Shown: positions 2,644 to 40,952 of the stretch, piece by piece
Layout of the letters: each line of letters begins with the position of its first letter
Numbering within the stretch: the first letter of the stretch is position 1
NCBI GenBank assembly: GCA_002418285.1
Contig: DIDT01000045.1
Coordinates: 41,250-105,249 of the forward strand
Source of the DNA: Phycisphaerales bacterium UBA5793
Lineage (GTDB): Bacteria; Planctomycetota; Phycisphaerae; Phycisphaerales; UBA5793
Length of the DNA: 64,000 nucleotides
Direction: 5' to 3'
Made by a program: the position numbers and the translations under genes
The notes under the pieces: generated by a model
Seen by the model: only the letters and a program-made list of their open reading frames with translations
Databases searched by the model: none
Told to the model about the DNA's origin: nothing

Positions 2644-2794
2644 TGGGTGACTGAATCCCTCGATCTGAGCCACCGCCCGATCTGCGCGCGCTCCAACTTG
2701 GAGTCGGCATTTCGGCGCTTGATGCAGCGACGTGAGACGACCAGTGTCCGCTCAACCAGATGGCCTGGTATTAAGAGAAAGGACTCCAACGCGG

Positions 2795-4066
2795 CTACGG
2801 CACCAACTGCGCTTCCGCCGGCTGCAGGTGATAGATCGACCCTTCGGTCCTCGACTGCTTGTTTTCAATCAAAACGATTCCCTGACCCGCCAAAAACCCA
2901 ACGACGCTTGCCAGAAACACCGGCACAGGTTCGCCGCAGCCGGTCAACGCCAGGACAATCAATGCAGATGCAAGCGGTGTTTGTGTCGCAGCAGAGTTGA
3001 ACGCCGCCATGCTGCAAACCATGATGAGTGTCGGATCCATCCCAGGCACAGCCATCGCAATGATCTTCCCCAGCACCGCGCCCATGAATATGTGCGGAAT
3101 GATCAGACCTCCCTGCCAGTGGCCGCGAATCGTCACCGACGCGGCGCACATCTTCGCAAGCAGCAGCACCACCAGCGCAATCGCCGTCGCCTCCTGCAGC
3201 TGAATCACCTGTGGAATCTGGGTGCTGCCATAGAAGTAACTTAGTGGGACGAAGTAGCCCAACAGCCCGATCATCAATCCAGCCAGAGTCGTCTGTGCCA
3301 CCAGGGGCAGTCTCGAGCGCTTGACCAGTCTGCCCAGCGCGCCAAACAGCAGCGAGTACACCTTGGCCACCGGGCCGCAGGCCAACCCGACCCCCGCAGC
3401 CGCCAGCGGCGTCCACCACAACGATGCGCCCGCTGTTGTGATCGTCACGTGCCATGGTTGAACGATGCCGTGTCCGATGGTGACCGTCATCGTCAGGAAC
3501 GCCACGCAACTGCACACCAGCGTCGGAACAATCGCCTCGTAATACTCCAGGCCCCGGGTATGCAGCATCTCCAGCCACAACAGCGCGCCGCCCATCGGCG
3601 CACCCAGAAAGGCTCCAAAGCCCGCGCCCATTCCTGCTAGTGTGAGCACCCGTTTGAGCGCAGGCAACTTGATGCGTTTTGCAAACCATGCACCGAGCGA
3701 ACCTCCTGCTTGTGTAAGCGCCCCCTCCGGGCCCGCGCTTTGCCCCGCGACGAGCCCGATGATCGATACGGGCTGGATCGGCAGATTGTCCTTCATGGGC
3801 AACTCGCCTGACTTGTGAAAGTGATAGATGATCGTCGCCATGCTTCCCGGATCGGAAAACAACTTGAGAATCAGCCCGACCATCAACCCCACAAGCGTGC
3901 TGAACCAGATGCGATCGACACCGCTCGAAAGCCATTGCTCCCAGATTAATCGATCCAGCCCGTGCCAGATCACGAGAAACCCCGAACAGAACAGTCCAAC
4001 CACTGCGCCCAGAGCTGCCGACCATAATACCATTTGCCAGAACGTCTTCTGCGCCATGGAAAGCAT
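2795..4066 (-). CDS. ClC-family voltage-gated chloride channel / H+-Cl- antiporter
   Basis: Polytopic membrane protein. VAGQSAGPEGALTQAGGSLG and GGLIIPHIFMGAVLG correspond to the conserved G(K/R)EGP and GxFxP ClC segments, and GAPMGGALLWLE is also present. The start is set at ATG 4064-4066 (MLSMAQK), just after GGAGGAG. The ORF stays open to 4273, but those 69 extra codons show weak third-position GC bias. Confidence 0.8.
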   Translation of the reverse strand: MLSMAQKTFWQMVLWSAALGAVVGLFCSGFLVIWHGLDRLIWEQWLSSGVDRIWFSTLVGLMVGLILKLFSDPGSMATIIYHFHKSGELPMKDNLPIQPVSIIGLVAGQSAGPEGALTQAGGSLGAWFAKRIKLPALKRVLTLAGMGAGFGAFLGAPMGGALLWLEMLHTRGLEYYEAIVPTLVCSCVAFLTMTVTIGHGIVQPWHVTITTAGASLWWTPLAAAGVGLACGPVAKVYSLLFGALGRLVKRSRLPLVAQTTLAGLMIGLLGYFVPLSYFYGSTQIPQVIQLQEATAIALVVLLLAKMCAASVTIRGHWQGGLIIPHIFMGAVLGKIIAMAVPGMDPTLIMVCSMAAFNSAATQTPLASALIVLALTGCGEPVPVFLASVVGFLAGQGIVLIENKQSRTEGSIYHLQPAEAQLVP

Positions 4067-4420
4067 CACTCCTCCAGCCATCCAAGCAACTGCATCATGG
4101 TAGGCTAACGAGCCCCCGCCCAGACTGTGATCGCCGGCGGCGGCAGAACGGGCCTGAGCTATTACCAGATGCCTGCCGCCTAGCGAGCCGTCTGTCGATT
4201 TGCGCCGAGGCCGAGGCTCTGTCGATTCGCGAAGTACGATATCTTGAGTCGCGACGATGGTTTCCCTCTGCAATTTGCAACTGTAGAAACCACGCCATCG
4301 CTCGCGTATCTCTGTTCCCTCTCACGCTGATGCGAACACTGTTGCGCCCCCACTACTTTCGTAAGATGATGAAGGCCAGTCACTTAGGGCTGGCCTTTGT
4401 CTTGCGCGGAAACGGGGCTG

Positions 4421-4460
4421 GGCGTGTTTGGGCTTGTCTGGGCTTGTCTGGGCGTGCCGA
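4421..4460. repeat. four tandem 10-bp units GGCGTGTTTG/GGCTTGTCTG/GGCTTGTCTG/GGCGTGCCGA
   Basis: Read directly from the sequence. It lies in the divergent intergenic region between the ClC gene and ORF 4695. The same 10-mer vocabulary recurs at 23655-23674 and, inverted, at 23888-23917. Confidence 0.8.
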
Positions 4461-4694
4461 GTCTGGTCTCGATCCTGGAGCACGAGCGTGCAACGTGGCG
4501 AGCCGGAAGGCGGAGCTGACCGGGGTGGCACCGCTGGGAGACTGGGACTCGATTTGGGCCAAGCGGGGCATCCGTGTCGCGCCGTCAATGCCGCCGCGTG
4601 AATTGCCAAGAGGAGGGCGACCTCAGACGATCCGGTCTCAAGGGCGGTCGTCAGAGGCCTTGCGAGCCGATCGGCCAGAAGAATACCCTTCCCC

Positions 4695-5861
4695 ATGCAA
4701 GTCTGCTTTCACTTTGATGAAAACGCTCTGGGTAGCGGCGCCCGCGCAATTGAGTTCTTGCTTAAGCACGGAAGACGCCGCGACCTCAAGATCCGGTCCA
4801 GACTCTACGGCGGATCGCTTCTCATTCACACGGGTGCCGAAGCGCTAGTCCACCGGGGCCGCACCACCACGAGCAAAACGAACCTGGAAACACTGGAATC
4901 GCTTACTCGCGAGTGGCTAACGCCACAGCCCTTCTGCTGGTTCGGTCTCTTGCCGCGAGCTGTCGAAGTTGTCTCTTCCAGCCACGTCTACTGCACGCTC
5001 TTCGAGACGATCGAGCCTCGCCAAGCCCTGCAACTTCACAGCGCTGCATCGAAAGCGTTGCCGGACTTGTACCTGGGCGCACTTCAAGTCGACGAATGCC
5101 TGCCCTCTCATCTTGCTGGATACCAGCTCATGGCTATGCTCCGAGTTGATGGCAAGGCTGCGTACGTAACTTGGGACGGACTTTCTCCGGACTCAAAGCA
5201 GCCGTGGCTCCTTGAACTGCTTCACCGGGTAGGCTTTGATCCAGTCGATTACGAGGATGTGTCTGCCAAGTTCACGATCTTTGATCGCCACGGCGGCTGC
5301 GACTCAAGGCTCAGATCCGCCCAGTGCCGACGCTCCATGGTCGAACTATTTGATGGGGTAGTTGACTCCTCTCTTGTTCGCATTAGAGACGCCATGCCCG
5401 ACGTCCACGAACGCTTGTGGGCAACACTTCGTGGATTTGAAACAGCGAGCGTCGATGAACAGTTCACCAGCGTCGCACTGGGCTGTCGGCGGCTGATCGA
5501 GTACGCCGCAGACTGCCTCTTTCCTCCCAAAGCGTCGGCTCCAAATGAGCGGAAGCTCGACAAGGCCTCATTCAAAAACCGATTGCTGAAGTACCTGGAG
5601 GAGTGCCAAGTCGAACGGACAGATGTGCGAATGATTGAAGCGAATCTTGAACATGCTGCAGCGTGCGTTGATCGGCTGCTCGAACTCGCAAATCGGGGCG
5701 TGCATTCCAGTTCGACGCGCGATCAGGCGAGGCGGTGTATTCTCGGTACGGTGATTCTCTTGGATGATCTCTGCAATGTCAATCGCAAAGGGTTTGCCGT
5801 GCGCATCTCGCTCAACACGGAGGCAATTGAAGGCATTACAGGGAAACACTCGTCGCCGTAA
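4695..5861 (+). CDS. hypothetical protein; the C-terminal helical region is reminiscent of DUF4145
   Basis: 388-aa ORF convergent with the ATPase-HNH operon. The C-terminal segment ALGCRRLIEYAADCLF...KNRLLKYL...VDRLLELANRGVHSS resembles, from memory, the DUF4145 pattern (CRRxLE ... R..GN..H) seen in restriction- and Abi-associated proteins. The N-terminal 230 aa are unassignable. Confidence 0.5.
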   Translation: MQVCFHFDENALGSGARAIEFLLKHGRRRDLKIRSRLYGGSLLIHTGAEALVHRGRTTTSKTNLETLESLTREWLTPQPFCWFGLLPRAVEVVSSSHVYCTLFETIEPRQALQLHSAASKALPDLYLGALQVDECLPSHLAGYQLMAMLRVDGKAAYVTWDGLSPDSKQPWLLELLHRVGFDPVDYEDVSAKFTIFDRHGGCDSRLRSAQCRRSMVELFDGVVDSSLVRIRDAMPDVHERLWATLRGFETASVDEQFTSVALGCRRLIEYAADCLFPPKASAPNERKLDKASFKNRLLKYLEECQVERTDVRMIEANLEHAAACVDRLLELANRGVHSSSTRDQARRCILGTVILLDDLCNVNRKGFAVRISLNTEAIEGITGKHSSP

Positions 5862-5956
5862 CGATCGTGGCAGTCTGATCCGGGGGCCAGTTGGGACTGT
5901 CCGTCGCCTGTCACGGGGTCGTCCGGCCAGTCCTCTAGCTCTGACTTGAAATGTAA

Positions 5957-5976
5957 AGTCGAGTAGCGTCTCGACT
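5957..5976. terminator. hairpin between convergent genes (AGTCGAG-tagcgt-CTCGACT)
   Basis: Perfect 7-bp stem with a 6-nt loop. It abuts the HNH gene stop codon (5976-5978) and lies about 95 nt after the stop of ORF 4695..5861. There is no strong U-tract. Confidence 0.3.
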
Positions 5977-7097
5977 CAGTTTATCGCGGGAGGTAAGGCA
6001 GGCTCGATCCCCAAGCGCCTCCGGTCTTCTTCGAGTTGCAACAGCGTGTCCTCGATTATCGCCCCGGTTGCAGCTGCAAATCTGTACAGTTCGCAGCAGT
6101 AAATTGCGCGAGCGCGCTTGCCGATCCACGCGGATTCCAGATGGGCCAGGAGCTCGAACTTCTCGACAACGGTTTGCGCATCTACTGGCTGCGTTTCATT
6201 CTTGAGGCAGTCGACCACGCTCCGCTGAATTGTCTGAATGTCGTCCATGATGGCAGCGCCCCAGTATTCAGACAAACGGAACAACCCGTCCAGATTCTCG
6301 ACGCGCTTTGCGTCGGCTACCTCAATAGCCGAAAGCTCTATGCCCAGCGTGCGATCGGGCTTCTCCACGAAGTCGACCGTAAACCGGTTCCTCGCCGTTC
6401 GTAGCCGCGGATGGAACCACTGCGATGCTTGATCTGCTTCATCCCAATCGAGGGGTACCTTGTCCCCCTTGCGATCTCCTTTGTTGGACTCATGGCAGGA
6501 CGGAATCAGATTGTCGGGGTGAACGGACAGAAATGGAAAGGCACTCTTGGGCAGGAAATGATCTACCTCGACGCTCTGTAGTTCACCATCGCAATAGGGA
6601 CAAATTCTCGCACGTGGCGCACGTACGTACAACTCCTTGGTGAGTTTCTCTGGCGCGCCTTGAATCGACACTGGATATCCGAGCGACTTGTTGAGCCATG
6701 GATCGTCGAAAGCGAGCAACAGTCGCCTCATAGCTTCGTGGACGGGCGATTGAGTCCAGTAGTCCCGGTCCGTCTTGCGGAGACGTACCGCCCCGTTCTG
6801 GGCATAACAGTGCCGAAATGCATGCTGCTCCCGCATTACGGCAATGAACTCCTGCTTTGGTCCCTGGTTGGCGCTCGCAATGGTGGACAGCAGCGATTGT
6901 CGTTCGCCGCCACTGTTCGTCCAGAATCTCTGAATCCACTCCCGATCCACTCTCGGCCACGCAACGTCCGACAACCACTGAAGATCAACGGTTGCGCCCT
7001 CGGGTAGCGCGCACAATCGTCGGACGAGACGCCGCTGAAGCACGACAATTCGCAGCATGTTTTGACGAACGGCGGAATCAGGCACCGGGTGTATCAT
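5976..7097 (-). CDS. HNH endonuclease-domain protein (PtuB / TIGR02646-like)
   Basis: 373-aa ORF with an HNH core: ICPYCDGELQSVEVDHFLPKSAFPFLSVHPDNLIPSCHESNKGDRKGDK. Its start (ATG 7097, or alternatively ATG 7058) overlaps or closely follows the ATPase stop at 7078-7080. Confidence 0.8.
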   Translation of the reverse strand: MIHPVPDSAVRQNMLRIVVLQRRLVRRLCALPEGATVDLQWLSDVAWPRVDREWIQRFWTNSGGERQSLLSTIASANQGPKQEFIAVMREQHAFRHCYAQNGAVRLRKTDRDYWTQSPVHEAMRRLLLAFDDPWLNKSLGYPVSIQGAPEKLTKELYVRAPRARICPYCDGELQSVEVDHFLPKSAFPFLSVHPDNLIPSCHESNKGDRKGDKVPLDWDEADQASQWFHPRLRTARNRFTVDFVEKPDRTLGIELSAIEVADAKRVENLDGLFRLSEYWGAAIMDDIQTIQRSVVDCLKNETQPVDAQTVVEKFELLAHLESAWIGKRARAIYCCELYRFAAATGAIIEDTLLQLEEDRRRLGIEPALPPAIN

Positions 7098-8964
7098 CAG
7101 TTATTCCGTCAAGAATCTGCTGCAGCCTGGCTCGCGGCCACCCACCGCCAATCGCCGAAACAAGTGTCTCCAATTCTTCTCGGCTCTTGCCGTCCCATGT
7201 CCGTGCCAAATACCTGCGCAATGCTTGCTCCGCCCGCGAACCTATTGATGCCTGCATTCCGAAGACATGCAGCATCACGCGACCTGGCTCAGCGCCGAAC
7301 GTTGAAAAGGAAACGGGATGAAGTACGGCTTGGCCATACTCACGAGTCAGCCGGACTATCTCACTCGCGAATGCGTCGGTCAGCGCAATGCTCGTATGCG
7401 TAGCAACCATCACTTGAGCCGCGGTCGTCTTCAGCACATTGTCATCGATGATGTCGATGATCTCGCGCTTCCAGGAGTCATTGAAATGAGTCTCCGGCTC
7501 GTCAAGCAAAAGCAGGCTCCCATCCCGCTCTCTCAGCAGCAGCAACAGCGCCATTCGGCCCAGGAGCATGCGCTCTCCGTCGCTGAAGTCGTCCAACGTC
7601 AGGACCACATCATCCAGTTTGCCGTCGTGCGCGGCCATCTGGGTAGTGCGCTTCACGGTGACGGTCACATCTTCGATCAGTCCGGCCGCCCACCATGCGT
7701 GTAGGGCACGGAACACATCCCACAACGCACGATCAGTCCAGTCGGCCGCCTGCTTCCGAACCGTACTCAGCGCGCGTACTACGGCCTCTGCCCCTGAGGG
7801 CGAGCCATCCACGCGATCAACGATCTCCCGCAATGGCTCAGGCACTCGATTGCCAACCGAGACTCCTCGAATGTCTGGCTCGATTCGCCGCTCGAAGCGC
7901 CCAAGATCTATCACCATCTGCAATCGCCCCAACGGCTGTCGAATGACTTCATCTGCGAGTGCCGTCAGGGCCATCCACTGTGCCAGCCACTCCGAGTTGA
8001 GCTCCTGGGAGGGCGGGCGATAGGTGATGCTCAAGTGCGTTGGCCACCACCAATCGATCTCATTCAAAAGCGTGCGCGCATCTTTCTCGGCCGGGCGCTC
8101 TCCTTTCTGCTGCTGAGCCACGGCCGTCCGCAATGCGCTTCGCCATGTGTCCAGTTGCGAGAACGCGGCGCCATCGGTTAACTCTCGTGCCGCCACAATC
8201 AGCCCAACTGAAATGGCTGCCAGTTTTAGATCGTGCGGCCCCAACAGAAGACACTTGGCGTCGGCACCACGATCGGTAGGGTTTATTCGTGCCTGAATCG
8301 CCGCTCGCTCAGACTTATCGATTGCGACCTCTGGGGAATTCAGTTCGCGTTCGACGGTCCACCCTCGCGGCCGGTCTTGATCGTCACTCAACCCGTGATA
8401 GGTGGCATGAGACAAATCGACATCTGACAAATCTGCTTGGCGCACCTTCTCCCATGCGTCCAAGTCACCGGATGTGTATGCCACAACTGACGAGGGAAGA
8501 TACCGACTCACCAATTGGTTGCCGGACATTCGATCGCCCGTGACCGTCTGCGCCCAAAACTCTGCATGCGCCACTTCCTTATCATCAACTGCAGACAGCA
8601 CTTCTACCCAATCAACCTCGTCCTTGCCGGCAATACATGCCTCCCACAAGTGCCAACTCTCCGGAATGACGGCGAACACGGCTTCGCTCGCGGTCTTTCC
8701 CATGTGCCGGAATACCACCATGGCTCGCTCATCGTCTCGATTCATTTCGTAAACGAGCGCTACTGGAAACGGTGGAACGCGTTCGGCTTCCAGCCAGCGA
8801 AATGTCTCATAGACCGCTCGCAACAGACTGCTCTTTCCAGTTCCGTTCAGACCGACGACGAACTGCAATGAGCCTTTGCGATCGAGGATCGTCTCTTCAC
8901 GAAACTCCACCTTGAGATCTCGCAGCACGCCGTAGTCGGGCAGGTGAAGATATCGCAGCCTCAT
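7078..8964 (-). CDS. ABC/SMC-like AAA ATPase (AAA_15/AAA_21 type; PtuA-like, restriction-system-associated)
   Basis: 628 aa with Walker A VGLNGTGKSS, a signature-like FSDGERMLLGRMALL, Walker B LLLLDEPETHF and H-loop VATHTS. The ATG shares ATGA with the hsdS stop at 8961-8964. Confidence 0.85.
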   Translation of the reverse strand: MRLRYLHLPDYGVLRDLKVEFREETILDRKGSLQFVVGLNGTGKSSLLRAVYETFRWLEAERVPPFPVALVYEMNRDDERAMVVFRHMGKTASEAVFAVIPESWHLWEACIAGKDEVDWVEVLSAVDDKEVAHAEFWAQTVTGDRMSGNQLVSRYLPSSVVAYTSGDLDAWEKVRQADLSDVDLSHATYHGLSDDQDRPRGWTVERELNSPEVAIDKSERAAIQARINPTDRGADAKCLLLGPHDLKLAAISVGLIVAARELTDGAAFSQLDTWRSALRTAVAQQQKGERPAEKDARTLLNEIDWWWPTHLSITYRPPSQELNSEWLAQWMALTALADEVIRQPLGRLQMVIDLGRFERRIEPDIRGVSVGNRVPEPLREIVDRVDGSPSGAEAVVRALSTVRKQAADWTDRALWDVFRALHAWWAAGLIEDVTVTVKRTTQMAAHDGKLDDVVLTLDDFSDGERMLLGRMALLLLLRERDGSLLLLDEPETHFNDSWKREIIDIIDDNVLKTTAAQVMVATHTSIALTDAFASEIVRLTREYGQAVLHPVSFSTFGAEPGRVMLHVFGMQASIGSRAEQALRRYLARTWDGKSREELETLVSAIGGGWPRARLQQILDGITDDTPGA

Positions 8965-10745
8965 TCCCCGGGCTCCTTACCTTCATCGCTCCAAGAACCA
9001 GTCTGATCGGCCCAGCTCCCTGCCGCTTGTGTCCACGATTCCGTGACTCGCGCCAAACGAGCCAGCTCCTCCATTCGAGCAAGGTCCGATTGCTGCTCAT
9101 CTGTCGAATTCTCCCGGACCAGGTAGTACATGTTGCCGAACCCGGTTCCGTGGTACTCTTCAATCGGACTACCAGTCACCTCCCCGGCCGGTCGGCTGAC
9201 GAGTTTCACTAGTCCTCGGGCCACGAGAACATCCAAATGGCGCCGCAGCGCATCATCGGCCAGTTCGTGCAGGGGCGATTCCAACCATTCGCGCATTGAA
9301 TGGACGGTAAATGTTGAAAAGACCGCCTCCCGATGCCCCTGGTAGGCGACTTGGTCGAACAATTGCCGCTGTTCGCGCGAGAGATCGGCGAATCTCCCAG
9401 ACCGTGTTAGACTCCCCACGGTCGGCGGTGTCGTTGGTTTCACGAGCTTGACCCCCGCAGACTTGAGGATTGCGTCTCGTTCCATTGCTTCGTGTTCCAG
9501 ACTCTCGCGGTTCGCCACTCGCCACTCGGCAGTAAGCTCGCCACTGAATGCATGTGCGAGTAGAGAGTCATTCAGATCTTTGAGCAGCGCATAGCCGCGC
9601 ATGTGTTCGTCGATTCCACGGACAGCGGACAATCTACTAGTAAAGTGCTTCTGCTGATTCGGCGGCAGAATCGGCACGGGAACGCTCTTGAGCCCGTCAA
9701 TATTGATGTTGTATTGCCCCGCTGAGGTTTTTGCCCTTCGCAGGATATCCATTCGACCACGGACAGTGCGAAGATACGCCAACAATACGTCGGGATGCAT
9801 GATGTCCGGTTTGAGGCGCCCGCGGATCAAGTACGATGCAAAGACGATCGCGTGTCCATCCTGCCCCGCTCTGATCGCGCGGTTCGAAGAAAACGTGGCA
9901 CTACGCCCGATGAACTCCGGATTACCGTTTGTTCGCACGAATAGCAAGTCACCATCGTGCAAAACGAGCTTCTCGAACTCCTGTTGTGTCAGCGACACCT
10001 TGACAAGGTCGTCGTACGACACATCGTTTCCGATCACGTTTGGGATTCGCAGAGTGGTGTATCCATCGTCTCCCGAAGCCGTAGAGGTACCGTATCGGAA
10101 CTCCTCCACAACCTCTCCGAGCGTGGTAGTCGGAAAGTCCACTATGGGATCACCAAACATCTCGTGGAAGATGGCGGGGGTGAGTCTAGCGGTGAGTTCA
10201 TCGGCTCGTCGTCGAAGGCGACGCACGGCGCGAGCCTCTTCGAGTATCGCAACGATGCGGCGCTGCTCACTCAACGGAGGAACGGGGATTGGAGCAACCT
10301 TCAAGAACTCAGCGGGCACTCGCTGCTGACCCGCAGAGCCCGAAAACGCAGCCTCAGCACGAGCGAGGAAGAATGGAGCGCGGATATACAGGAACAACCA
10401 CTCCGGTAAGATACTTGGTCCGGCACGAAGTACATGGAACTCCGTTGACCCGAAACCACGACCGCCCAGGAGGCCACGCGCAATCGCGGCCTTGCCATTC
10501 TGCATGCACGGCGTGATCTTCGCAAACAGGACATCGTTCTCAAGGAACGATGTGTATCCGGTTCGGACCTCGGCGATCTCCCGAATCTCCGGCTCGGCGA
10601 TTTCGCCCATGACCTCGTCGACTGCGGACATCGGCACAAAAGTCACCTCGCCCTCCTCGCCTCTCTCGATATGATCGCGAGGGTTGATCTCACAGACTTG
10701 AGCGAGACGAGCTAGGTACCACGTATTTGGTAATACCGACTTCAA
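8961..10745 (-). CDS. hsdS: type I restriction-modification specificity subunit HsdS with an extra C-terminal extension of about 190 aa
   Basis: There are two target-recognition regions (LPNTWYLARLAQVCEI...; FPTTTLGEVVEEFRYGTS...). They are separated and followed by the conserved helical regions PPLSEQRRIVAILEEARAVRRLRRRADELTARL and LPPNQQKHFTSRLSAVRGIDEHM...LLAHAFSGELT. The start is TTG at 10743-10745, sharing TTGA with the stop of the upstream remnant. The C-terminal tail contains LRRHLDVLVARGLVKLV (winged-helix-like). Confidence 0.85.
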   Translation of the reverse strand: MKSVLPNTWYLARLAQVCEINPRDHIERGEEGEVTFVPMSAVDEVMGEIAEPEIREIAEVRTGYTSFLENDVLFAKITPCMQNGKAAIARGLLGGRGFGSTEFHVLRAGPSILPEWLFLYIRAPFFLARAEAAFSGSAGQQRVPAEFLKVAPIPVPPLSEQRRIVAILEEARAVRRLRRRADELTARLTPAIFHEMFGDPIVDFPTTTLGEVVEEFRYGTSTASGDDGYTTLRIPNVIGNDVSYDDLVKVSLTQQEFEKLVLHDGDLLFVRTNGNPEFIGRSATFSSNRAIRAGQDGHAIVFASYLIRGRLKPDIMHPDVLLAYLRTVRGRMDILRRAKTSAGQYNINIDGLKSVPVPILPPNQQKHFTSRLSAVRGIDEHMRGYALLKDLNDSLLAHAFSGELTAEWRVANRESLEHEAMERDAILKSAGVKLVKPTTPPTVGSLTRSGRFADLSREQRQLFDQVAYQGHREAVFSTFTVHSMREWLESPLHELADDALRRHLDVLVARGLVKLVSRPAGEVTGSPIEEYHGTGFGNMYYLVRENSTDEQQSDLARMEELARLARVTESWTQAAGSWADQTGSWSDEGKEPGE

Positions 10746-11898
10746 ACCCTTTCCTCCACTCGCTGCAGCAGCCCGGCAAGATGGGCGCGAATCTCAGAGT
10801 GGATGCCGTCGAGCTTGCGGATTAGGGCGGCGGGCCTCTCGTGGTCGCCTGGGGCAAAGACAAAGGGTTTATGCCGACCGGCGGAGAGCATCAGATCGGC
10901 TGCCTCGATGCAGTCGGGATCGAGCCGATCGTGGAACTCTTCCTTTACTGTGCCGTCGTCGGAAAAGACATTCAGCCGACTAACAAGAAACTGGAGGTAT
11001 GCGGGATCGACATTGCCCTCCGCGTCGTGGGTCGGCTTGGTGATCTCCTGCTGGGTGTCGGGATCGTTGCCCCATGAGTCAAGGCGTGCCCAGGTGCGGA
11101 CAGGGGTGACCCACGCGAGCGTCTGATCATCCGGCTTCGGATTATCTTCGCTCACCACGCGCTTCTGTTCGCGTTGCTTTGTCTCAACGCCACGGAGCAC
11201 AAGGTCGTATCCGTCAAGCCGGGCGAAGCACTTGAGAATGGCGAGCTGCTCTTCCTCAGTAACTGCGTACTCCTTCGGCTTGGTCCGTTTCGTGCCGCTC
11301 CCGAAGCGACCATTGAGCGCCGTCCGCGCTTCGACTCTCGCCTTTTCGTAGGAGTCCTTCAGTACGGTAAAGGCATACTGGTCGTATTCGCGATCGAGGA
11401 TTCCTTGGTCGCGGTTGAGTTTCACGAGTTCGTTCCACAGCTTCCTGAGTCGGGAGTCGAGTTCCTTGTCGGCCTTGGCGACCTGTTTGGGTTTGGACTT
11501 CTCGTTGCAACCAATTGCGTGGGCGTCATTGACGAACTGCGTGGTGAGACCGTCAATGAGTGCCTCACCCTCCTCGGCCACGCAATCTGTGGCCTCGCCG
11601 GGATCACGGGGAAGGGTGGTGAAAACCTCGTGGATGCCTAACGCGTGACCGCTTTGTGATTGTTCTTCTGGAAAGGCTCGGAGAAAGTCCTCGTCAAGGA
11701 CTCGCCACCGCTCCGGCCAATACTCGGGCTGGTGGTATGCCTTGGTGATGGCCGCAGCACGAAGGCCAGGAGCGTCGGATCCCTAAAGGACCTCGTGCCA
11801 CGCGCGGAACTTCTCGACGGCGTCATACAGATCGTTGTCCTGGCCTTGGCGTTCCCTGCGCTTCTGGTCGAGGGTGAAAGCCTCCTCGGTGACCTCGT
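10742..11898 (-). pseudogene. 5'-truncated ORF of unknown function (possibly the C-terminal part of a large R-M / methyltransferase-associated protein), cut by the IS and carrying an in-frame TAG
   Basis: My translation of the minus frame continues upstream of the listed 279-aa ORF (10742..11581): ...GGKVNEVTEEAFTLDQKRRERQGQDNDLYDAVEKFRAWHEVL*GSDAPGLRAAAITKAYHQPEYWPERWRVLDEDFLRAF...CVAEEGEALIDG.... There is an in-frame TAG at 11783-11785. An upstream in-frame TGA at 11913-11915 lies already inside the IS left end. I recognised no methylase motifs. Confidence 0.6.
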
Positions 11899-11910
11899 TG
11901 ACCTTTCCCC
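11899..11910. repeat. IS3 left terminal inverted repeat
   Basis: TGACCTTTCCCC is the exact reverse complement of 13154-13165. Confidence 0.85.
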
Positions 11911-11952
11911 CTCAAACTGATCCAGATCTAGAGTGGTACTCTGGCGTGGATC

Positions 11953-12246
11953 ATGGAGGACAAGGTCATGAGCAGGAAGCGTTTCTCGGCTGAAGAGATC
12001 GTGAATAAGTTGCGTCAGGCGGATGTGCTGATCTCCCAGGGCCAGACCGTCGCGCAGGTGTGCAAACAGATCGCCGTCACCGATCAGACGTACTACCGAT
12101 GGCGCAAGGAATACGGCGGCCTGAAGACCGACCAGGCGAAGCGTCTGAAGGAACTCGAGCGGGAGAATGCTCGCTTGAAGCGTCTGCTGGCTGATGCGGA
12201 GTTGGACAAAGCGATTCTTCGGGAGGCCGCCAACCCAAACTTCTGA
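11953..12246 (+). CDS. IS3-family transposase OrfA
   Basis: RKRFSAEEIVNKLRQADVLISQGQTVAQVCKQIAVTDQTYYRWRKEYGGLKTDQAKRLKELERENARLKRLLADAELDKAIL is the typical IS3/IS407-group HTH plus coiled-coil OrfA. Confidence 0.9.
   Translation: MEDKVMSRKRFSAEEIVNKLRQADVLISQGQTVAQVCKQIAVTDQTYYRWRKEYGGLKTDQAKRLKELERENARLKRLLADAELDKAILREAANPNF
12234..12240 (+). promoter_or_regulatory. candidate -1 programmed ribosomal frameshift heptamer C CCA AAC
   Basis: In the orfA frame the codons are aaC CCA AAC ttc tga. The orfB frame is -1 and reads ...QPKLLSPQRKRAAVIHVMEQ... through the same site. The heptamer fits the X XXY YYZ pattern, 4 nt before the orfA stop. Confidence 0.6.
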
Positions 12247-12269
12247 GCCCGCAGCGGAAGCGTGCAGCG

Positions 12270-13136
12270 GTGATCCACGTGATGGAGCAGCTGCAGGTCT
12301 CCGAACGGCGGGCGTGTCAGGTATTGCGTCAGTCACGGATGACGCAGCGGTATCTTCCACAGGTTCGCGACGATGAAGAACCACTGACTCAACGGATCAT
12401 CGAGCTGGCGTGCGTGTACGGTCGGTACGGAACACCGAGGATCACGGCGATGCTGAGACGCGAGGACTGGCGTGTGAATCACAAACGGGTGGAACGCCTC
12501 TGGCGTGAGCAGGGACTGCGGATGCCGCGCCGGCAGCCCAAACGCGGTCGATTGTGGCTGAACGATGGATCATGCGTTCGACTTCGGCCGCAGCATCCGG
12601 ACCACGTGTTGGCGTATGACTTCGTGACGGCGCGGACGCACGAGGGCCGACCGTTCCGGATGCTCACGCTGGTGGACGAGTTCACCCGCGAGTGCCTGGC
12701 GATCGATGTGGCGAGGTCGTTGAAGGCGGATGATGTGCTGGAACGTCTGTCCTGGCTGTTCGCGATCCGCAGCGTGCCGGACTACATCCGATCGGACAAC
12801 GGCCCGGAGTTCACTTCGAAGGTGGTGCGGGACTGGCTGAATCGTGTCGGAGTGAAGACCTTGTTCATCGAGCCGGGCAGCCCGTGGGAGAACGGGTACG
12901 TGGAGAGCTTCAATGGCAAGCTGCGCGATGAACTGCTCAACGGGGAAATCTTCTATACTCTGAGGGAGGCAAAGGTGCTGACCGAACGATGGCGTGTGCA
13001 CTACAACAGAATCAGGCCGCACTCATCACTGGGCTACCGGGCGCCGGCCCCCGAGACGTTGGCTCCGATGGAGTCGTGCTCCGCTGCGCTGCGCACGTCT
13101 CCATCGGGTGTGCATTGCACCGAAGGACTAACATAA
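12270..13136 (+). CDS. IS3-family transposase OrfB (integrase/DDE core), normally made as an OrfAB fusion
   Basis: The translation contains VSERRACQVL...YGRYGTPRITAMLRREDWRVNHKRVERLWREQGL...AYDFV...LVDEFTRECL...IRSDNGPEFTS...FIEPGSPWENGYVESFNGKLRDELL...YNRIRPHSSLGY. The frame is open upstream to about 12222, consistent with frameshift fusion. Confidence 0.9.
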   Translation: MIHVMEQLQVSERRACQVLRQSRMTQRYLPQVRDDEEPLTQRIIELACVYGRYGTPRITAMLRREDWRVNHKRVERLWREQGLRMPRRQPKRGRLWLNDGSCVRLRPQHPDHVLAYDFVTARTHEGRPFRMLTLVDEFTRECLAIDVARSLKADDVLERLSWLFAIRSVPDYIRSDNGPEFTSKVVRDWLNRVGVKTLFIEPGSPWENGYVESFNGKLRDELLNGEIFYTLREAKVLTERWRVHYNRIRPHSSLGYRAPAPETLAPMESCSAALRTSPSGVHCTEGLT

Positions 13137-13153
13137 ACACTGGTACGAAACCC

Positions 13154-13165
13154 GGGGAAAGGTCA
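13154..13165. repeat. IS3 right terminal inverted repeat
   Basis: GGGGAAAGGTCA. Its last three bases supply the TGA stop (minus strand) of the neighbouring gene 13163..14299. Confidence 0.85.
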
Positions 13166-14299
13166 CGATCCAGAGATCGTCACATCCATCATGGCTCCGG
13201 CGAACATGGTGTTCGGAAATACGTCGTCGACATTCACTTCGCCAGGTGGCGGCGGAGCGATCTCGGCGCGCCACATTATCGCTTCATTGCGCTGGCGTTT
13301 GGTGTTGTAGCCATAACCAACGGCGTACACATAGGTGTCATCGTGCCAGACTCCACCCGCCATGGAGCTCTCGTACCTGCTGGGCAGGAACGCGTGCAGG
13401 TCCACGTAGGACTCGGGCGTGCCGCTCCACAGGGCGGCGCGATAGAGGTCGGGGGCGTAGACAAAGCCCACCTGGTACTCGCCGTCTCCACCCAGGCCCT
13501 CCGAGCTCCTGTTTACCCCGGGAGGATGCAGGTCCACCCAGGACTCGGCGGTTCCGTTCCACAAGCAGGCGTGAAAGCGCAGGGGTGAGCCCACCTTTGC
13601 GTAGCCCACCTGCTGGCCGCCACCCACGCCGAGGGCAAACGAAAGATCCGCGCCTGCGGGGTGCAGGTCAACCCATGACTCGGGCGTGCCGGTCCACAGG
13701 CCGGCGTGAGGACCGTCGCCCATGCCCGCCACGCCCACCTGCTGCCCTCCGTCCGCGTCACTGGCCTGAGCATTGGTCGCCCCGGCCCAGTAGGGAGTCA
13801 GGTCCACATACGACTCGGGTGTACCGTTCCACAAGCAGGCATATGGAGTTCCGGCGATGTAGAACCGGCCTACCTGTTGTCCACCATCGACACCGGTGGC
13901 GAACGATTGATCCGCGCCGGCGGGATGCAGGTCGACCCACGACTCGGGCGTGCCGGTCCACAGGCTGGCGTGATTGACGCCGTCCAGGGTGGCGTAGCCC
14001 ACCTGCTGGTAGCCGTTCATGCTGGATGCACTCGAGTTGCTCATCCCGGGGGGGTGCAGATCCACCCACGAGTTGGCGCTGCCGTCCCACAGGATGGCGC
14101 GTACGAAGCCACCCACATTGGCCCTGCCGACCTGCTGGCCGCCGTAGACGTCTGAAGCGCTCGAGCCGGCCGCCCCGCCGGGGTGCAGATAGATCACGTC
14201 CCACTGGGCATTCGCGCCCACCGGCGTTGCGAATGCGACGGCGCTAAGAGCGAGAATCTGCCAGGCGATCTGGCGTCCTTTTGTATTAACACATCCCAT
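13163..14299 (-). CDS. secreted repeat protein (about seven 45-aa GGQQVG...LW.GT.ESWVDLHP repeats, HAF-like), probably 3'-truncated by the IS
   Basis: The start is set at ATG 14297-14299 (MGCVNTKGRQIAWQILALSAVAFA signal-like), preceded by AAAGGA. The repeats are readable in the translation. The stop codon lies inside the IS inverted repeat. Confidence 0.7.
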   Translation of the reverse strand: MGCVNTKGRQIAWQILALSAVAFATPVGANAQWDVIYLHPGGAAGSSASDVYGGQQVGRANVGGFVRAILWDGSANSWVDLHPPGMSNSSASSMNGYQQVGYATLDGVNHASLWTGTPESWVDLHPAGADQSFATGVDGGQQVGRFYIAGTPYACLWNGTPESYVDLTPYWAGATNAQASDADGGQQVGVAGMGDGPHAGLWTGTPESWVDLHPAGADLSFALGVGGGQQVGYAKVGSPLRFHACLWNGTAESWVDLHPPGVNRSSEGLGGDGEYQVGFVYAPDLYRAALWSGTPESYVDLHAFLPSRYESSMAGGVWHDDTYVYAVGYGYNTKRQRNEAIMWRAEIAPPPPGEVNVDDVFPNTMFAGAMMDVTISGS

Positions 14300-14468
14300 G
14301 ATCCTGTCCTTTCTGGGCTGCAAATATGGACAATTGCTATCTTCTGACGTGCTTCGTGTGGCCTACGTCGATCGAGGCACAGGGCTCGAACGGCGCTCGC
14401 AACGACTGCGTGAACACCGCATGGCCGTGTCCCCTTCATGCGGAGTCGCTCAACTGAACTCCCGACCG

Positions 14469-16277
14469 TCATTGCACTTCATGGGTCACGACGTTGCTCT
14501 TCTTCGATTGCTGGGCGGCCTGCACCCAGACATGCCTGCCCTGCAGCCCGTTGGACACGAACCCGGATACACCGGCAATCCCGTATCTGTCTGCCGTTTT
14601 CGAAGCGATCAGTTGAGGTTGAGCCAGGTCCAGCGTCACGTTCAGTTGGCGGACATAGGTGCTGCCCAGACCATGCAGCGAAGCGACAAAGTAGACCCGC
14701 TCGCGCGGATTGCAATTCGACGCATCGATCCGGGCCAATTCGCCGGCGTGCAGTGATTCGACTCCAATGTAGATCTCGCCTGCCGTGTTCATCGCCGCGA
14801 CCACGGCTTCGTACGCATCGACGCGCCCGGCGCCGTATTCGTTGTCCGGCCCCGGATCGCCCAGGTCCACGCTCGTACTCATGAGCAGCTGCCTCACTTG
14901 CGCGTGGGTCAGCTCAGGATTCGCGCTGAGCATCAGCGCGATCGTTCCGGCCACGTGCGGCGTGGCGCTCGGCGACTGGTTGAAGTAGCCCGTGCAGTTA
15001 CTCGACGTGCTCCTGGTATTGTTGCCCGGTGCCGTGACCGTCGGCTTCATCTTCCCGGGCGGGTACGGCCAGTCGTTGTACGGGTCGATCCCTTCCCACG
15101 ACACCGGACCGCGGCTCGACCAAATCATCAGGTTGTCACTGCAGTCCGTATTGCCCACGGTGATCACCAGCGGCACGTCGCCCGGAGTCTCGACCGAGTC
15201 GATCCCGTATGCAGTGCCATTAACGGCTGCGGTAAACGTCACGACCACCCCGGCCGCCATGGCGTTTTCACACAACGCACGCCACACCGAGCGCTGCGGG
15301 TTCGCACCGTGCCGAAAGCCCAGGACCCCTACCATCACGTCCGCACCGTTGTCCACACAGTATTGCATCGAGTCCCAGACCGACTGCTCGCCCCTTGACC
15401 CCACATGGTTATAGATCCTGACGATCATCGCTTTCGCCGTCGGCGCCATGCCCGTTTGCGTGCCGTTGGTCCCGTCGCCTACGACGGTACCGGTCACGTG
15501 CGTTCCGTGTCCGCCCCTGTCCCCATCCGATACATCGTTGTTGTTGAACTCGAAGTTCCAGCCGTGGATGTCATCGATGTATCCGTTGTTGTCATCATCG
15601 ATTCCGTTGTTGGGGGTCTCGTTGGGATTGGTCCAGATCTGGTTCACCAGGTCCGGGTGCGTGATGCAGCAGCCGGTGTCGATCACACCGACCACCACGC
15701 CGGTTCCGGTGTTGCCGAAGTCGTTCCACACCTCAGGCGCCCGCATCAGGCTCACACCGCACTCGATCTCCGCGGTCGTCCCGCCATGGCCACCCTGATC
15801 GGGAAACATCTCCTTGCCGATTCGATGATCGAGGTACAGGTGCGCGACGTCACTGCGCTGCGCGACGTGCATCGCCACGTCGCGCGTCATTTCGGCCCCG
15901 ACCATGTTGTGAATCCAGAACGAGCGGATGTTGCCGCCGACGCTTCCCAGCGATTGCTCGTTGTGCAGGTATGCCAGCAACTCCGTCTGCGTGCGCTGTG
16001 CAATGGGCTTGAGAAAAGACTTCATCGCTTCGCGCTGCCCCGATCGCCGTTCAAAGTTGAAGATGGTCTGAACCGCCTCCCGCGGCGCCTGCTCGGTCAT
16101 CACAATCGTGATCGGCACGAGTTCGCTCGCCGCCGAGCCGCGCAGCACCTCCTGCAGATCCGGCGCAACTCGCTGCTGAAGCTGCACGGCATCGCCGAAC
16201 ACCTCCTGTGCAAAGCTGCCCGATTGGGCCGCCAGCACTATGCCTGCAACCATCATTCCTAGTACTCTGTGTCGCAT
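14469..16277 (-). CDS. secreted subtilisin-like serine protease (peptidase S8)
   Basis: The catalytic triad contexts are VGVIDTGC, GGHGTHVTGTV and SPSATPHVAGTIALM. The start is set at ATG 16275-16277 (MRHRVLGMMVAGIVLAAQSGSFAQE signal), preceded by AGGAGA. The ORF extends to 16439. Confidence 0.9.
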   Translation of the reverse strand: MRHRVLGMMVAGIVLAAQSGSFAQEVFGDAVQLQQRVAPDLQEVLRGSAASELVPITIVMTEQAPREAVQTIFNFERRSGQREAMKSFLKPIAQRTQTELLAYLHNEQSLGSVGGNIRSFWIHNMVGAEMTRDVAMHVAQRSDVAHLYLDHRIGKEMFPDQGGHGGTTAEIECGVSLMRAPEVWNDFGNTGTGVVVGVIDTGCCITHPDLVNQIWTNPNETPNNGIDDDNNGYIDDIHGWNFEFNNNDVSDGDRGGHGTHVTGTVVGDGTNGTQTGMAPTAKAMIVRIYNHVGSRGEQSVWDSMQYCVDNGADVMVGVLGFRHGANPQRSVWRALCENAMAAGVVVTFTAAVNGTAYGIDSVETPGDVPLVITVGNTDCSDNLMIWSSRGPVSWEGIDPYNDWPYPPGKMKPTVTAPGNNTRSTSSNCTGYFNQSPSATPHVAGTIALMLSANPELTHAQVRQLLMSTSVDLGDPGPDNEYGAGRVDAYEAVVAAMNTAGEIYIGVESLHAGELARIDASNCNPRERVYFVASLHGLGSTYVRQLNVTLDLAQPQLIASKTADRYGIAGVSGFVSNGLQGRHVWVQAAQQSKKSNVVTHEVQ

Positions 16278-16407
16278 GTGATTCTCTCCTTGATTTGATT
16301 CAGATAGCCCAAACTGAGTCGCCCACGCCCTTTCGATCGTTGACGCGATGAGCGTCACACAGACGAAGTCTGGATTCGGTGCACCTTTCCTGCACGGGTC
16401 TCTTTCG

Positions 16408-17919: not shown

Positions 17920-17933
17920 GTTGATAGTCCTTT

Positions 17934-19589: not shown

Positions 19590-19864
19590 TGTTGTTTCTC
19601 CTTCACTTGCAGATCTCAGCTTTGCAGTTTCATCTCTGCCATGACATGGACGGTGAAGTCACTGAAGGGCCTCTGTGCACCGCCCCTGCACTGCGCACCT
19701 CTGCGGGTCTCTGCGGTCGTCGCGCCACTTCGATCAAGTCACAGGACTCGGACGGCGCGCAATGGGACTGTGCAGGCAGAGCATCCTGTCTCTCCTATCT
19801 AATAAGGACGTGTTGTCTCACAACAGTCGGACTTCGCCACGGGAAGCGGTTCGGTACCGACTCG

Positions 19865-40926: not shown

Positions 40927-40952
40927 GACTCCGGCCTCCGCACAATAAGCCG

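What the first reader, a model, noticed from the sequence alone, without database searches (positions are those of the whole stretch)
5976..10745. HsdS specificity subunit translationally coupled to an ABC-type ATPase and an HNH nuclease, with no HsdR or HsdM in the operon as it stands
Consecutive minus-strand ORFs are chained by overlapping stop/start codons. The upstream remnant and hsdS share TTGA at 10742-10745. hsdS and the ATPase share ATGA at 8961-8964. The ATPase stop at 7078-7080 lies inside or 20 nt before the HNH ORF start (7097 or 7058). The ATPase has Walker A GLNGTGKSS, FSDGERMLLG and LLLLDEPETHF. The HNH protein has CPYCDG..VDHFLPKS..NLIPSCHESNKGD. This pair has the architecture known for Septu (PtuA/PtuB) and for restriction-associated AAA ATPase plus TIGR02646-type genes. 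Here it sits directly behind, and is coupled to, a DNA specificity subunit. The operon ends at a hairpin and a convergent gene. I recognised no HsdR-type helicase-nuclease or N6-methylase motifs (NPPY/F, FxGxG) anywhere in the window. Bold reading: an HsdS-guided ATPase-HNH effector module. Conservative reading: a Septu-like pair nested in a type I R-M locus whose hsdM/hsdR were removed by the adjacent IS-associated deletion.
Basis: partly seen in the sequence, partly recalled or inferred. Interest (0 to 1): 0.7.

Follow-up and report, generated by a model that had tools for sequence, protein, structure and literature searches.

The report
Decayed type I restriction locus with Septu-like pair
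The three coupled genes are real, but they are what is left of a widespread five-gene cassette (hsdR-hsdM-hsdS plus an ATPase and an HNH nuclease) after an insertion-sequence-associated deletion removed hsdR and the catalytic half of hsdM, so this is an ordinary broken copy of an uncharacterised family rather than a new HsdS-guided nuclease.

Summary
On the minus strand, hsdS (8961-10745), a PtuA-like ABC ATPase (7078-8964) and an HNH protein (5976-7097) are chained by TTGA, ATGA and a 20-nt overlap. All quoted motifs are present.

The "upstream remnant" (10745-11898, one in-frame TAG) is the C-terminal extension of an ~820-aa HsdM. An IS3 element (11899-13165) cuts it off, and that element also truncates the unrelated gene on its other side. 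Family HMMs find no hsdR and no methylase domain anywhere in the 64 kb.

Of 59 homologous loci with at least 8 kb of upstream flank, 53 carry co-directional hsdR-hsdM-hsdS-ATPase-HNH. They span Planctomycetota to Pseudomonas, Nostoc and Ktedonobacter. ATPase distances track HsdR and HsdM distances (Mantel r = 0.91-0.92). Bona fide TIGR04435 "restriction system-associated" ATPases sit in the same gene order.

The conservative reading is therefore right, with one correction. The pair is not a chance nested insertion; it is an integral, co-inherited part of this type I lineage.

The bold reading is not supported. A syntenic sister genome has lost the HsdS DNA-recognition domains yet keeps the ATPase and HNH genes intact.

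The most likely role of the pair is a Septu/PARIS/PrrC-style second-layer effector coupled to the restriction-modification complex. That role is inferred, not shown.

The parts
5976..7097 (-). HNH nuclease gene (373 aa), PtuB-like. It has a CxxC...DH...N...C..N zinc-finger HNH core at residues 166-210, flanked by family-specific N- and C-terminal domains.
   Evidence: PADLOC PDC-M01B 1e-18 and PtuB 4.5e-7. TIGR02646 28.6 bits, below its 52.15 cutoff. PDB PtuB chains match only residues 162-207. Family invariants are C166 C169 D179 H180 N196 C201 N205 K210. S204 replaces a Cys found in 86% of the family, but this is a trait of the whole clade. dN/dS against the sister genome is 0.165.
7078..8964 (-). 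PtuA-like ABC/SMC-type ATPase gene (628 aa). Walker A is G38-S46, the ABC signature is S461-E464, Walker B is D488-E489, and the H-loop is H523.
   Evidence: Pfam AAA_21 and AAA_15. PADLOC PtuA 9e-36. TIGR04435 103 bits, below its cutoff of 300. Catalytic motifs are invariant across 20 homologues. The AF2 model has pLDDT 80 and pTM 0.80. Top Foldseek PDB hits are PtuA of retron Eco7/Ec78/Ec83 and of Septu, then AriA and Rad50. dN/dS is 0.10.
8961..10745 (-). hsdS (594 aa). A two-TRD specificity core (residues ~1-405) is followed by a ~190-aa family-specific C-terminal extension with a winged-helix-like sequence pattern.
   Evidence: PF01420. PADLOC Specificity_I 1e-89, and a 392-aa HsdS profile is fully covered by residues 8-404. 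The family HMM is covered 3-577 of 603 positions. The extension alignment is A2. It gives only sub-threshold ArsR, LexA and HTH_20 hints.
10745..11898 (-). hsdM pseudogene remnant. It holds only the ~380-aa C-terminal extension of a long (~820 aa) HsdM, with an in-frame TAG at 11783-11785. The methylase domain is missing.
   Evidence: Frame translation. Homologues are the C-terminal halves of N6_Mtase proteins. hsdMc HMM 5.6e-90, covering HMM positions 157-467. In the intact L009 HsdM (828 aa) the N6_Mtase domain ends at residue 450.
11899..13165 (+). IS3-family insertion sequence (1267 bp) at the deletion junction. orfA is 11953-12246 and orfB is 12270-13136, in the -1 frame. The terminal inverted repeats are TGACCTTTCCCC and GGGGAAAGGTCA.
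   Evidence: NF033516 transpos_IS3 225 bits, above its cutoff of 160. Inverted repeats. No matching target-site duplication was found. The right end supplies the stop codon of the unrelated gene 13163-14323(-), so both neighbours are truncated. This is the only copy in the window.
5955..5973 (-). Short hairpin (GTCGAG-N6-CTCGAC) directly after the HNH stop, before the convergent gene 4695-5861(+).
   Evidence: Read from the sequence. It is not scored as an intrinsic terminator.

Best explanation
The locus is a decayed copy of a conserved five-gene cassette, ordered hsdR, hsdM, hsdS, PtuA-like ABC ATPase, PtuB-like HNH nuclease.

Shown:
- A deletion ending at an IS3 element removed hsdR and the methyltransferase domain of hsdM.
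- What is left is a stop-containing hsdM tail and three intact, translationally coupled genes.
- Without HsdM and HsdR the locus can neither methylate nor restrict as a type I enzyme.

Inferred for the intact family:
- HsdR, HsdM and HsdS act as a type IB-like restriction enzyme.
- The ATPase and the HNH protein form a Septu-like complex, by analogy with the solved PtuA-PtuB assemblies.
- This complex serves as a second-layer effector controlled by the R-M complex. It may dock through the family-specific C-terminal extensions of HsdS and HsdM.
- It would be released when restriction is disabled or overwhelmed, as in the PrrC/EcoprrI, PARIS and retron-Ec78/PtuAB precedents.

Inferred for this window: the surviving ATPase-HNH pair may still act as an autonomous Septu-like defence, or it may simply not have decayed yet.
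For: The remnant is the HsdM C-terminus. Its homologues are N6_Mtase proteins, including one from Stieleria magnilauensis.

Intact neighbourhoods show the gene order.
- Stieleria locus L001 and Logan locus L002 both read hsdR-hsdM-hsdS-ATPase-HNH.
- The genome scan found 524 relatives, and the best 80 loci were fetched.
- Of the 59 loci with at least 8 kb upstream, 53 have R+M+S+HNH in the same order and on the same strand.
- Pfam confirms ResIII plus EcoEI_R_C for HsdR, HsdM_N plus N6_Mtase for HsdM, and Methylase_S for HsdS in three distant loci.
- A Pantoea plasmid carries the same five genes under generic PGAP names.

The five genes co-diverge. Mantel r is 0.91 for ATPase against HsdR, 0.92 for ATPase against HsdM, and 0.95 for HsdR against HsdM.

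Bona fide TIGR04435 ATPases (805 and 740 bits) lie in the same five-gene order.

The IS3 element sits at the junction, both neighbours are truncated, and no hsdR or methylase domain exists elsewhere in the window.

The ATPase fold is closest to PtuA, then AriA. The ATPase and HNH catalytic residues are conserved.

Precedents come from the literature. PMC12707154 describes R-M 'guardian' systems (PrrC, PARIS). PMC12819146 describes a retron sequestering a co-opted PtuAB pair.
Against: No experiment or structure links the pair physically to the R-M complex.
- The winged-helix reading of the HsdS extension rests on a sequence pattern and sub-threshold hits.
- The AF2 model of that extension was unusable, with pLDDT 40.
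- The HsdM extension matches nothing known.

The pair persists intact without R-M in several lineages: this window, L083-L085, L018 and L062. That fits autonomy as well as it fits coupling.

Mantel correlations would also arise from simple long-term linkage.

Only the best 80 of 524 genome hits were inspected.

No sigma-70-like promoter was found for the relic, so its expression is unknown.
Confidence: 0.75

Rival explanations
1. HsdS-guided effector. HsdS would deliver sequence specificity directly to the ATPase-HNH complex, forming a three-gene system that needs neither HsdR nor HsdM.
For: The three genes are intact and translationally coupled. HsdS in this family carries a conserved extra C-terminal domain next to the ATPase gene. 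A few loci lack hsdR: L004, L028 and L035.
Against: R and M accompany the trio in 53 of 59 loci. The window itself still carries an hsdM stump and an IS junction, so the three-gene state is secondary. In the syntenic sister genome both recognition domains of HsdS are deleted, yet the ATPase and HNH genes are retained intact. The R-less loci look like decay or rearrangement. From established knowledge of EcoKI and EcoR124I, HsdS binds DNA only as part of M2S.
Confidence: 0.04
2. Independent Septu-like system that merely sits beside a type I R-M system. There would be no functional coupling, and the pair would defend on its own both before and after the deletion.
For: Stand-alone PtuAB works on its own (PMC12819146). 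The pair is intact without R-M in this window, in L083-L085, in L018 and in L062. Distant ATPase-HNH pairs occur alone in L090-L092. Purifying selection acts on both genes, with dN/dS 0.10 and 0.165.
Against: Position, strand and tight spacing are fixed across phyla. Co-divergence with HsdR and HsdM is almost as strong as that between HsdR and HsdM. The sister family TIGR04435 shows the same arrangement. HsdM and HsdS are both unusually long in every intact locus of this family sampled (medians 820 and 590 aa), and HsdM is shorter in the two TIGR04435 loci. Most of the dN/dS signal predates the deletions, so it does not prove selection after R-M loss.
Confidence: 0.17
3. Dead relic. After the deletion removed the operon promoter, the three genes are silent and only look intact because the event is recent.
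For: The hsdM stump has just one stop codon and no frameshift in 384 codons, which suggests a recent event. The original promoter upstream of hsdR is gone and no sigma-70-like promoter precedes hsdS. Other relatives show stepwise decay: L016, L022, L034, L055, L064.
Against: A second, independent truncation in the sister lineage also spares exactly the ATPase and HNH genes. Planctomycete promoters need not fit the sigma-70 scan. IS3 ends often carry outward promoters; this last point is general knowledge and was not tested.
Confidence: 0.3

Closest known systems
TIGR04435 'restriction system-associated AAA family ATPase' loci (type I R-M operons with an added ATPase and HNH gene)
   Same: The five-gene order hsdR-hsdM-hsdS-ATPase-HNH is identical in L088 and L089, whose ATPases score 805 and 740 bits on TIGR04435. 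The ABC ATPase C-terminal region is homologous.
   Different: The window ATPase and every family member tested score only 90-126 bits against a cutoff of 300, and match only the last third of the model. This family has a much longer HsdM (~820 aa against ~555-573 aa) and an HsdS with a distinct C-terminal extension. The window copy lacks hsdR and the methylase domain.
Septu (PtuA ATPase plus PtuB HNH), including retron Ec78/Eco7-associated PtuAB
   Same: It is an ABC ATPase followed by an overlapping HNH gene. The best PADLOC hit of the ATPase is PtuA (9e-36). The best structural matches are PtuA chains 9kjy, 9n6b, 8eea and 8ee4. The HNH core aligns to PtuB. The retron case is a precedent for a sensor module co-opting PtuAB (PMC12819146).
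   Different: Sequence similarity is remote, and the NCBIfam PtuA and PtuB equivalogs fall far below cutoff. The proteins are larger (628 against ~550 aa, and 373 against ~216 aa). The family is not a two-gene system; it is fixed behind hsdRMS. No activity has been tested.
R-M 'guardian' modules: PrrC in the EcoprrI type IC locus, and PARIS (AriA/AriB)
   Same: An effector is encoded inside or next to a type I hsd operon. AriA is a related ABC ATPase (PADLOC AriA 1.9e-15; structural hits 8v45 and 8v46). The concept is reviewed in PMC12707154.
   Different: The nuclease here is an HNH protein, not a PrrC anticodon nuclease or a TOPRIM AriB. Nothing shows that anti-restriction proteins or R-M inhibition trigger it.
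PADLOC candidate system PDC-M01
   Same: The HNH protein's best PADLOC hits are PDC-M01B models (1e-18), and the ATPase also hits PDC-M01A (1e-12).
   Different: It is a candidate system with no described mechanism, and it appears only in survey papers. The ATPase scores better on PtuA models.

Membership tests
Type I restriction-modification system (complete) | HsdS specificity subunit with two target-recognition domains | tested here: met
   PF01420 at 46.6 bits against a cutoff of 22. PADLOC Specificity_I 1e-89. A 392-aa HsdS profile is covered end to end by residues 8-404.
Type I restriction-modification system (complete) | HsdM N6-adenine methyltransferase domain (HsdM_N plus N6_Mtase) | tested here: not met
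   Only the C-terminal extension survives (10745-11898), and it contains a stop codon. It gives no Pfam hit even at E<=10. The family HMM for the N-terminal part hits only its last ~130 positions.
Type I restriction-modification system (complete) | HsdR helicase-nuclease subunit | tested here: not met
   The family hsdR HMM gives no hit on any ORF of the 64-kb window. Other large ORFs are RND efflux, UvrD, BlaR1-like and similar.
Five-gene hsdR-hsdM-hsdS-ATPase-HNH cassette (this family) | Homology of S, ATPase, HNH and the HsdM tail to the cassette genes, in the same order and on the same strand | tested here: met
   HMM E-values are 1e-164 (S), 2e-186 (ATPase), 1e-94 (HNH) and 6e-90 (HsdM C-part), all colinear. 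The same order is found in 53 of 59 loci.
Septu (PtuA/PtuB) | PtuA-type ABC ATPase | tested here: inconclusive
   PADLOC PtuA model 9e-36, and PtuA chains are the top structural hits. However, NCBIfam PtuA NF041760 scores 37.9 bits against a cutoff of 500, and TM-scores are only ~0.3.
Septu (PtuA/PtuB) | PtuB / TIGR02646-type HNH nuclease | tested here: not met
   TIGR02646 scores 28.6 bits against a cutoff of 52.15, and PtuB NF041761 scores 21 against 150. Only the ~45-residue HNH core aligns to PtuB structures.
Septu (PtuA/PtuB) | Autonomous two-gene operon | tested here: not met
   In this family the pair follows hsdRMS in 53 of 59 loci.
TIGR04435 restriction system-associated AAA ATPase | Score at or above the curated cutoff (300 bits) | tested here: not met
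   103 bits, matching only the C-terminal third of the model. Other family members score 90-126 bits.
TIGR04435 restriction system-associated AAA ATPase | Location inside a type I R-M operon, followed by an HNH gene | tested here: met
   The true members L088 and L089 and this family share the R-M-S-ATPase-HNH order.
PARIS (AriA/AriB) | TOPRIM nuclease AriB partner | tested here: not met
   The partner is an HNH protein, and no AriB hit appears among its PADLOC matches.
IS3 family insertion sequence | orfA/orfB transposase with a -1 frame offset, and TG...CA terminal inverted repeats | tested here: met
   NF033516 at 225 bits against a cutoff of 160. orfA is 11953-12246 and orfB is 12270-13136. 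The inverted repeats lie at 11899 and 13165.
IS3 family insertion sequence | 3-4 bp target-site duplication, the mark of a simple insertion | tested here: not met
   The flanks are ..CGT and CGA.. and do not match. This fits a deletion or rearrangement junction.

The most novel reading that the evidence does not exclude
The five-gene family may be a truly integrated defence machine. The family-specific C-terminal extensions of HsdS (winged-helix-like) and HsdM would tether a PtuAB-like ATPase-HNH complex to the type I methyltransferase core. The effector would fire when restriction is blocked or saturated. This would be a third way, after retrons and stand-alone Septu, of controlling a PtuAB-type effector. 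On this reading the window's relic would be a naturally 'unleashed' or orphaned effector.
Probability: 0.3. Interest if true: 0.6.

Novelty: new member of a known kind. Interest (0 to 1): 0.33.

Why it matters
For this window it matters little. The locus is a broken copy and should be annotated as a type I R-M remnant plus a Septu-like pair, not as a new HsdS-guided nuclease.

The comparative work does bring out something useful.
- There is a widespread five-gene cassette: 524 relatives among 185,579 species genomes.
- It spans many phyla and is co-inherited as a unit.
- It is a sister of the TIGR04435 type.
- RefSeq annotates it only as "AAA family ATPase" plus "hypothetical protein".
- I found no paper describing it.

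It is a ready-made test case for how type I restriction enzymes are wired to abortive or second-layer effectors. Culturable sources exist (Pantoea, Pseudomonas, Citrobacter, Serratia, Acinetobacter).

Tried and rejected
- Pfam and PDB sequence searches on the hsdM remnant found nothing. Only the large protein search identified it.
- A literature search for TIGR04435 returned nothing. PDC-M01 appears only in two survey papers. No paper on a type I plus Septu-like five-gene cassette was found.
- E. coli complete genomes have no DNA match to the Citrobacter cassette.
- The last homologous-protein search, on the HsdS extension, returned only the sister-genome ORF. As a result the AF2 model of the extension had a two-sequence alignment and pLDDT 40, which is unusable.
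- Profile searches of the extension gave only sub-threshold ArsR, LexA and HTH_20 hits.
- The HsdM extension profile gave only coiled-coil-like noise.
- I considered that the HsdS extension plus the ATPase and HNH genes form an autonomous three-gene module, as L083-L085 and L062 might suggest. An exhaustive search shows the extension is normally the C-terminus of 550-690-aa HsdS proteins. Shorter hits look like fragments, and only P0130 is clearly stand-alone. I rate this idea weak.
- I considered R-less loci (L004, L028, L035) as a distinct M-S-ATPase-HNH type. Their upstream regions look like decay or rearrangement.
- The S204-for-Cys change in the HNH zinc site looked like possible decay, but it is shared by the whole clade.
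- The sigma-70 promoter scan upstream of hsdS found nothing. The terminator scan downstream of the HNH gene found nothing.
- One Python run timed out, and one Pfam call failed on bad coordinates.


Full report
**1. Observation**

The ORF table and the minus-strand sequence confirm the chain.
- hsdS is 8961-10745 (594 aa, TTG start). Its start overlaps the stop of the upstream frame as TTGA.
- The ATPase is 7078-8964 (628 aa). Its ATG overlaps the hsdS stop as ATGA.
- The HNH ORF is 5976-7097 (373 aa) and overlaps the ATPase end by 20 nt.
- The 7097 start is the right one. The family HMM aligns from residue 2, and the gene called in the closest relative has the same length and overlap.

All quoted motifs are present. 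Database support is strong.
- HsdS: PF01420 and PADLOC Specificity_I at 1e-89.
- ATPase: AAA_21 and AAA_15, PADLOC PtuA at 9e-36, and TIGR04435 at 103 bits against a cutoff of 300.
- HNH protein: PADLOC PDC-M01B at 1e-18. TIGR02646 and PtuB score only below their cutoffs.

A convergent 388-aa gene follows the operon. A 6-bp hairpin sits after the stop but does not qualify as an intrinsic terminator in the scan.

**2. What lies upstream**

The frame upstream of hsdS stays open, apart from one TAG at 11783-11785, up to position 11898. It matches no Pfam model or PDB chain.

The large protein search shows what it is. It is the C-terminal half of N-6 DNA methylases (PF02384), including one from the planctomycete Stieleria magnilauensis. 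In intact relatives HsdM is about 820 aa and the N6_Mtase domain ends near residue 450. The window therefore retains only a family-specific C-terminal extension of about 380 aa.

At 11899-13165 lies an IS3-family element.
- Its transposase scores 225 bits against a cutoff of 160.
- orfB lies in the -1 frame relative to orfA.
- The terminal repeats are TGACCTTTCCCC and GGGGAAAGGTCA.
- No target-site duplication is present.

Its far end supplies the stop codon of an unrelated secreted repeat protein gene (13163-14323). Both neighbours are therefore truncated. That is the signature of a deletion or rearrangement junction rather than a simple insertion.

Family-specific HMMs find no hsdR and no methylase domain anywhere in the 64 kb. 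The other large ORFs are ordinary chromosomal genes.

**3. Relatives**

The contexts of two HsdM homologues read hsdR-hsdM-hsdS-ATPase-HNH.

The ATPase belongs to a large full-length family of 600-660 aa found in many phyla. A profile scan of one genome per species found 524 relatives, and the best 80 loci were fetched with 10-kb flanks.

I searched all six-frame ORFs with iterated HMMs seeded from the Stieleria genes. Of the 59 loci with at least 8 kb upstream:
- 53 have hsdR, hsdM (with the same extension), hsdS and the HNH gene in the same order and on the same strand;
- 3 lack hsdR;
- 2 are visibly pseudogenised;
- 1 keeps only a short S-like ORF.

Pfam confirms a type IB-like HsdR (ResIII plus EcoEI_R_C), a long HsdM and HsdS in Syntrophobacter, Pseudomonas and Nostoc loci. 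A Pantoea plasmid carries the same five genes, annotated only as "AAA family ATPase" and "hypothetical protein".

Median sizes are R 913, M 820, S 590, ATPase 623 and HNH 367 aa.

Pairwise distances of the ATPase correlate with those of HsdR (r = 0.91) and HsdM (r = 0.92). That is nearly as strong as HsdR against HsdM (r = 0.95). The five genes have travelled together.

A scan of viral contigs added two loci whose ATPases are bona fide TIGR04435 (805 and 740 bits). They lie in the same five-gene order but with a shorter HsdM. The scan also found three distant ATPase-HNH pairs standing alone.

The window's family is therefore a sister of the annotated "restriction system-associated AAA ATPase" type. 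It is not a member of it.

**4. The sister genome**

The closest ATPase (84% identity, from a Phycisphaerales MAG) is syntenic with the window downstream: HNH gene, the 388-aa gene, and a ClC channel gene. Upstream, homology stops at window position ~9483. That is codon ~420 of hsdS, the boundary between the two-TRD core and the extension.

In that genome only a 182-aa ORF remains, holding the extension behind a new start codon, followed by intact ATPase and HNH genes.

| Gene | dN/dS |
|---|---|
| ATPase | 0.10 |
| HNH | 0.165 |
| HsdS extension | 0.26 |

The cassette is far more diverged than its flanks. dS is 0.5-0.9 in the cassette against 0.10 in the flanking genes. Nucleotide identity is 73-89% against 94-98%, with the step at the 3' end of the HNH gene. 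Cassette GC is 56-59% against 60-65% in the flanks.

I read this as divergent alleles of a horizontally exchanged cassette occupying the same chromosomal site, each then losing its R-M part independently. Because most of the divergence predates the deletions, the dN/dS values do not prove selection after R-M loss.

The key point is that the HsdS recognition domains are dispensable for retention of the pair. This argues against an HsdS-guided nuclease.

**5. The proteins**

- *ATPase.* Walker A, ABC signature, Walker B and H-loop residues are invariant in 20 homologues. An AF2 model (pLDDT 80, pTM 0.80) finds PtuA chains of retron Eco7/Ec78/Ec83 and of Septu as its best PDB matches (E about 1e-11 to 1e-9), then AriA of PARIS and Rad50. 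TM-scores are low (~0.3), as expected for a flexible multi-domain protein. By sequence alone only the C-terminal ABC part matches.
- *HNH protein.* It shares only its ~45-residue core with PtuB. The family invariants C166, C169, D179, H180, N196, C201, N205 and K210 are all present. The Ser at position 204 is a clade trait.
- *HsdS extension.* It shows a helix-helix-helix-wing pattern (L.REQ..L / YFTA..L / AIE.HLAVLAARGL..PVSRE...FGNAYRL). Profile searches give only sub-threshold ArsR, LexA and HTH_20 hints, and the AF2 model failed. An exhaustive search shows the extension is normally the C-terminus of 550-690-aa HsdS proteins.
- *HsdM extension.* It has no detectable relatives of known fold.

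**6. Mechanism**

Shown:
- The locus cannot be a working type I enzyme, because it has no HsdR and no methylase domain.
- It derives from a five-gene cassette.

Inferred:
- In the intact cassette the PtuA-like ATPase and the HNH nuclease form a Septu-like complex. This complex acts as a second layer coupled to the R-M enzyme.
- The precedents are PrrC held in check by EcoprrI, PARIS sensing anti-restriction proteins (PMC12707154), and retron Ec78 sequestering a co-opted PtuAB pair (PMC12819146).
- The long HsdM and HsdS seen in every intact locus of this family sampled are the obvious candidates for a physical link. This is untested.

The rival views are that the pair is functionally independent, or that the window's relic is silent. 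Neither is excluded. No sigma-70-like promoter precedes hsdS, and the pair survives alone in several lineages.

**7. Verdict**

The conservative interpretation is essentially right, with one correction. The pair is an integral, co-inherited part of this type I lineage rather than a nested insertion.

The bold interpretation is not supported.

The locus is a new, decayed member of a known kind: type I R-M operons carrying a restriction-associated ABC ATPase and an HNH nuclease. Interest in the window locus is low to moderate. The uncharacterised five-gene family behind it is the part worth following up.

Noticed in passing
window 11899-13165, and 13163-14323(-): An IS3-family element sits at a deletion junction. 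Its right terminal repeat supplies the stop codon of a secreted repeat-protein gene, which has a signal peptide and WVDLHP-type repeats. That gene is therefore also truncated. No target-site duplication is present, and this is the only copy of the element in the window.
   Followed up: partly
window 2778-9483 against L083 9482-16203: Against the syntenic Phycisphaerales MAG, the defence cassette is far more diverged than the flanking genes. Nucleotide identity is 73-89% against 94-98%, and dS is 0.5-0.9 against 0.10, with the step at the 3' end of the HNH gene. This suggests divergent cassette alleles exchanged at one chromosomal site.
   Followed up: partly
L084 9456-10004 (also L083 and L085): A 182-aa ORF (P0130, seen on 8 contigs) consists only of the HsdS C-terminal extension behind a new start codon. 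It lies directly upstream of intact ATPase and HNH genes. The breakpoint falls at the boundary between the HsdS core and the extension.
   Followed up: yes
window 10745-11898; alignment A4: HsdM of this family has a ~380-aa C-terminal extension with no Pfam or PDB relative. It ends in a strongly conserved motif, DRLDPDCIEA..NLSAGRHKPF. The Nostoc clade has a shorter version (HsdM about 626 aa).
   Followed up: partly
L001 8747-9898: In Stieleria magnilauensis the orthologous hsdM is also split, here by a DDE transposase gene on the opposite strand. This is a second, independent IS hit in the same gene of this cassette.
   Followed up: no
L035 736-3764, and L062 8166-9209: CBASS-type genes (SMODS, SAVED-Cap4 nuclease) lie next to the cassette in a Nostoc and an Acidobacteriaceae locus. 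A YgjP-like metallopeptidase gene precedes hsdM in L035. This is a defence-island context.
   Followed up: no
L078 6846-9968: The Herpetosiphon locus has an HsdS of about 1050 aa, nearly twice the family median. It may be a duplicated or fused specificity subunit.
   Followed up: no
L088 and L089 (IMG/VR contigs): Bona fide TIGR04435 ATPases, in full hsdR-hsdM-hsdS-ATPase-HNH cassettes, occur on contigs classed as viral. The cassette may ride on prophages or other mobile elements.
   Followed up: partly
window 37429-41001(+): A 1190-aa ORF has no Pfam match and carries an 807-aa ORF on the opposite strand (38503-40926).
   Followed up: no
window 14469-22834(-): A run of minus-strand genes encodes a subtilase (S8), two FG-GAP repeat proteins and a 989-aa Ser/Thr kinase with TPR repeats. 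This is typical Planctomycetota content and is unrelated to the finding.
   Followed up: no
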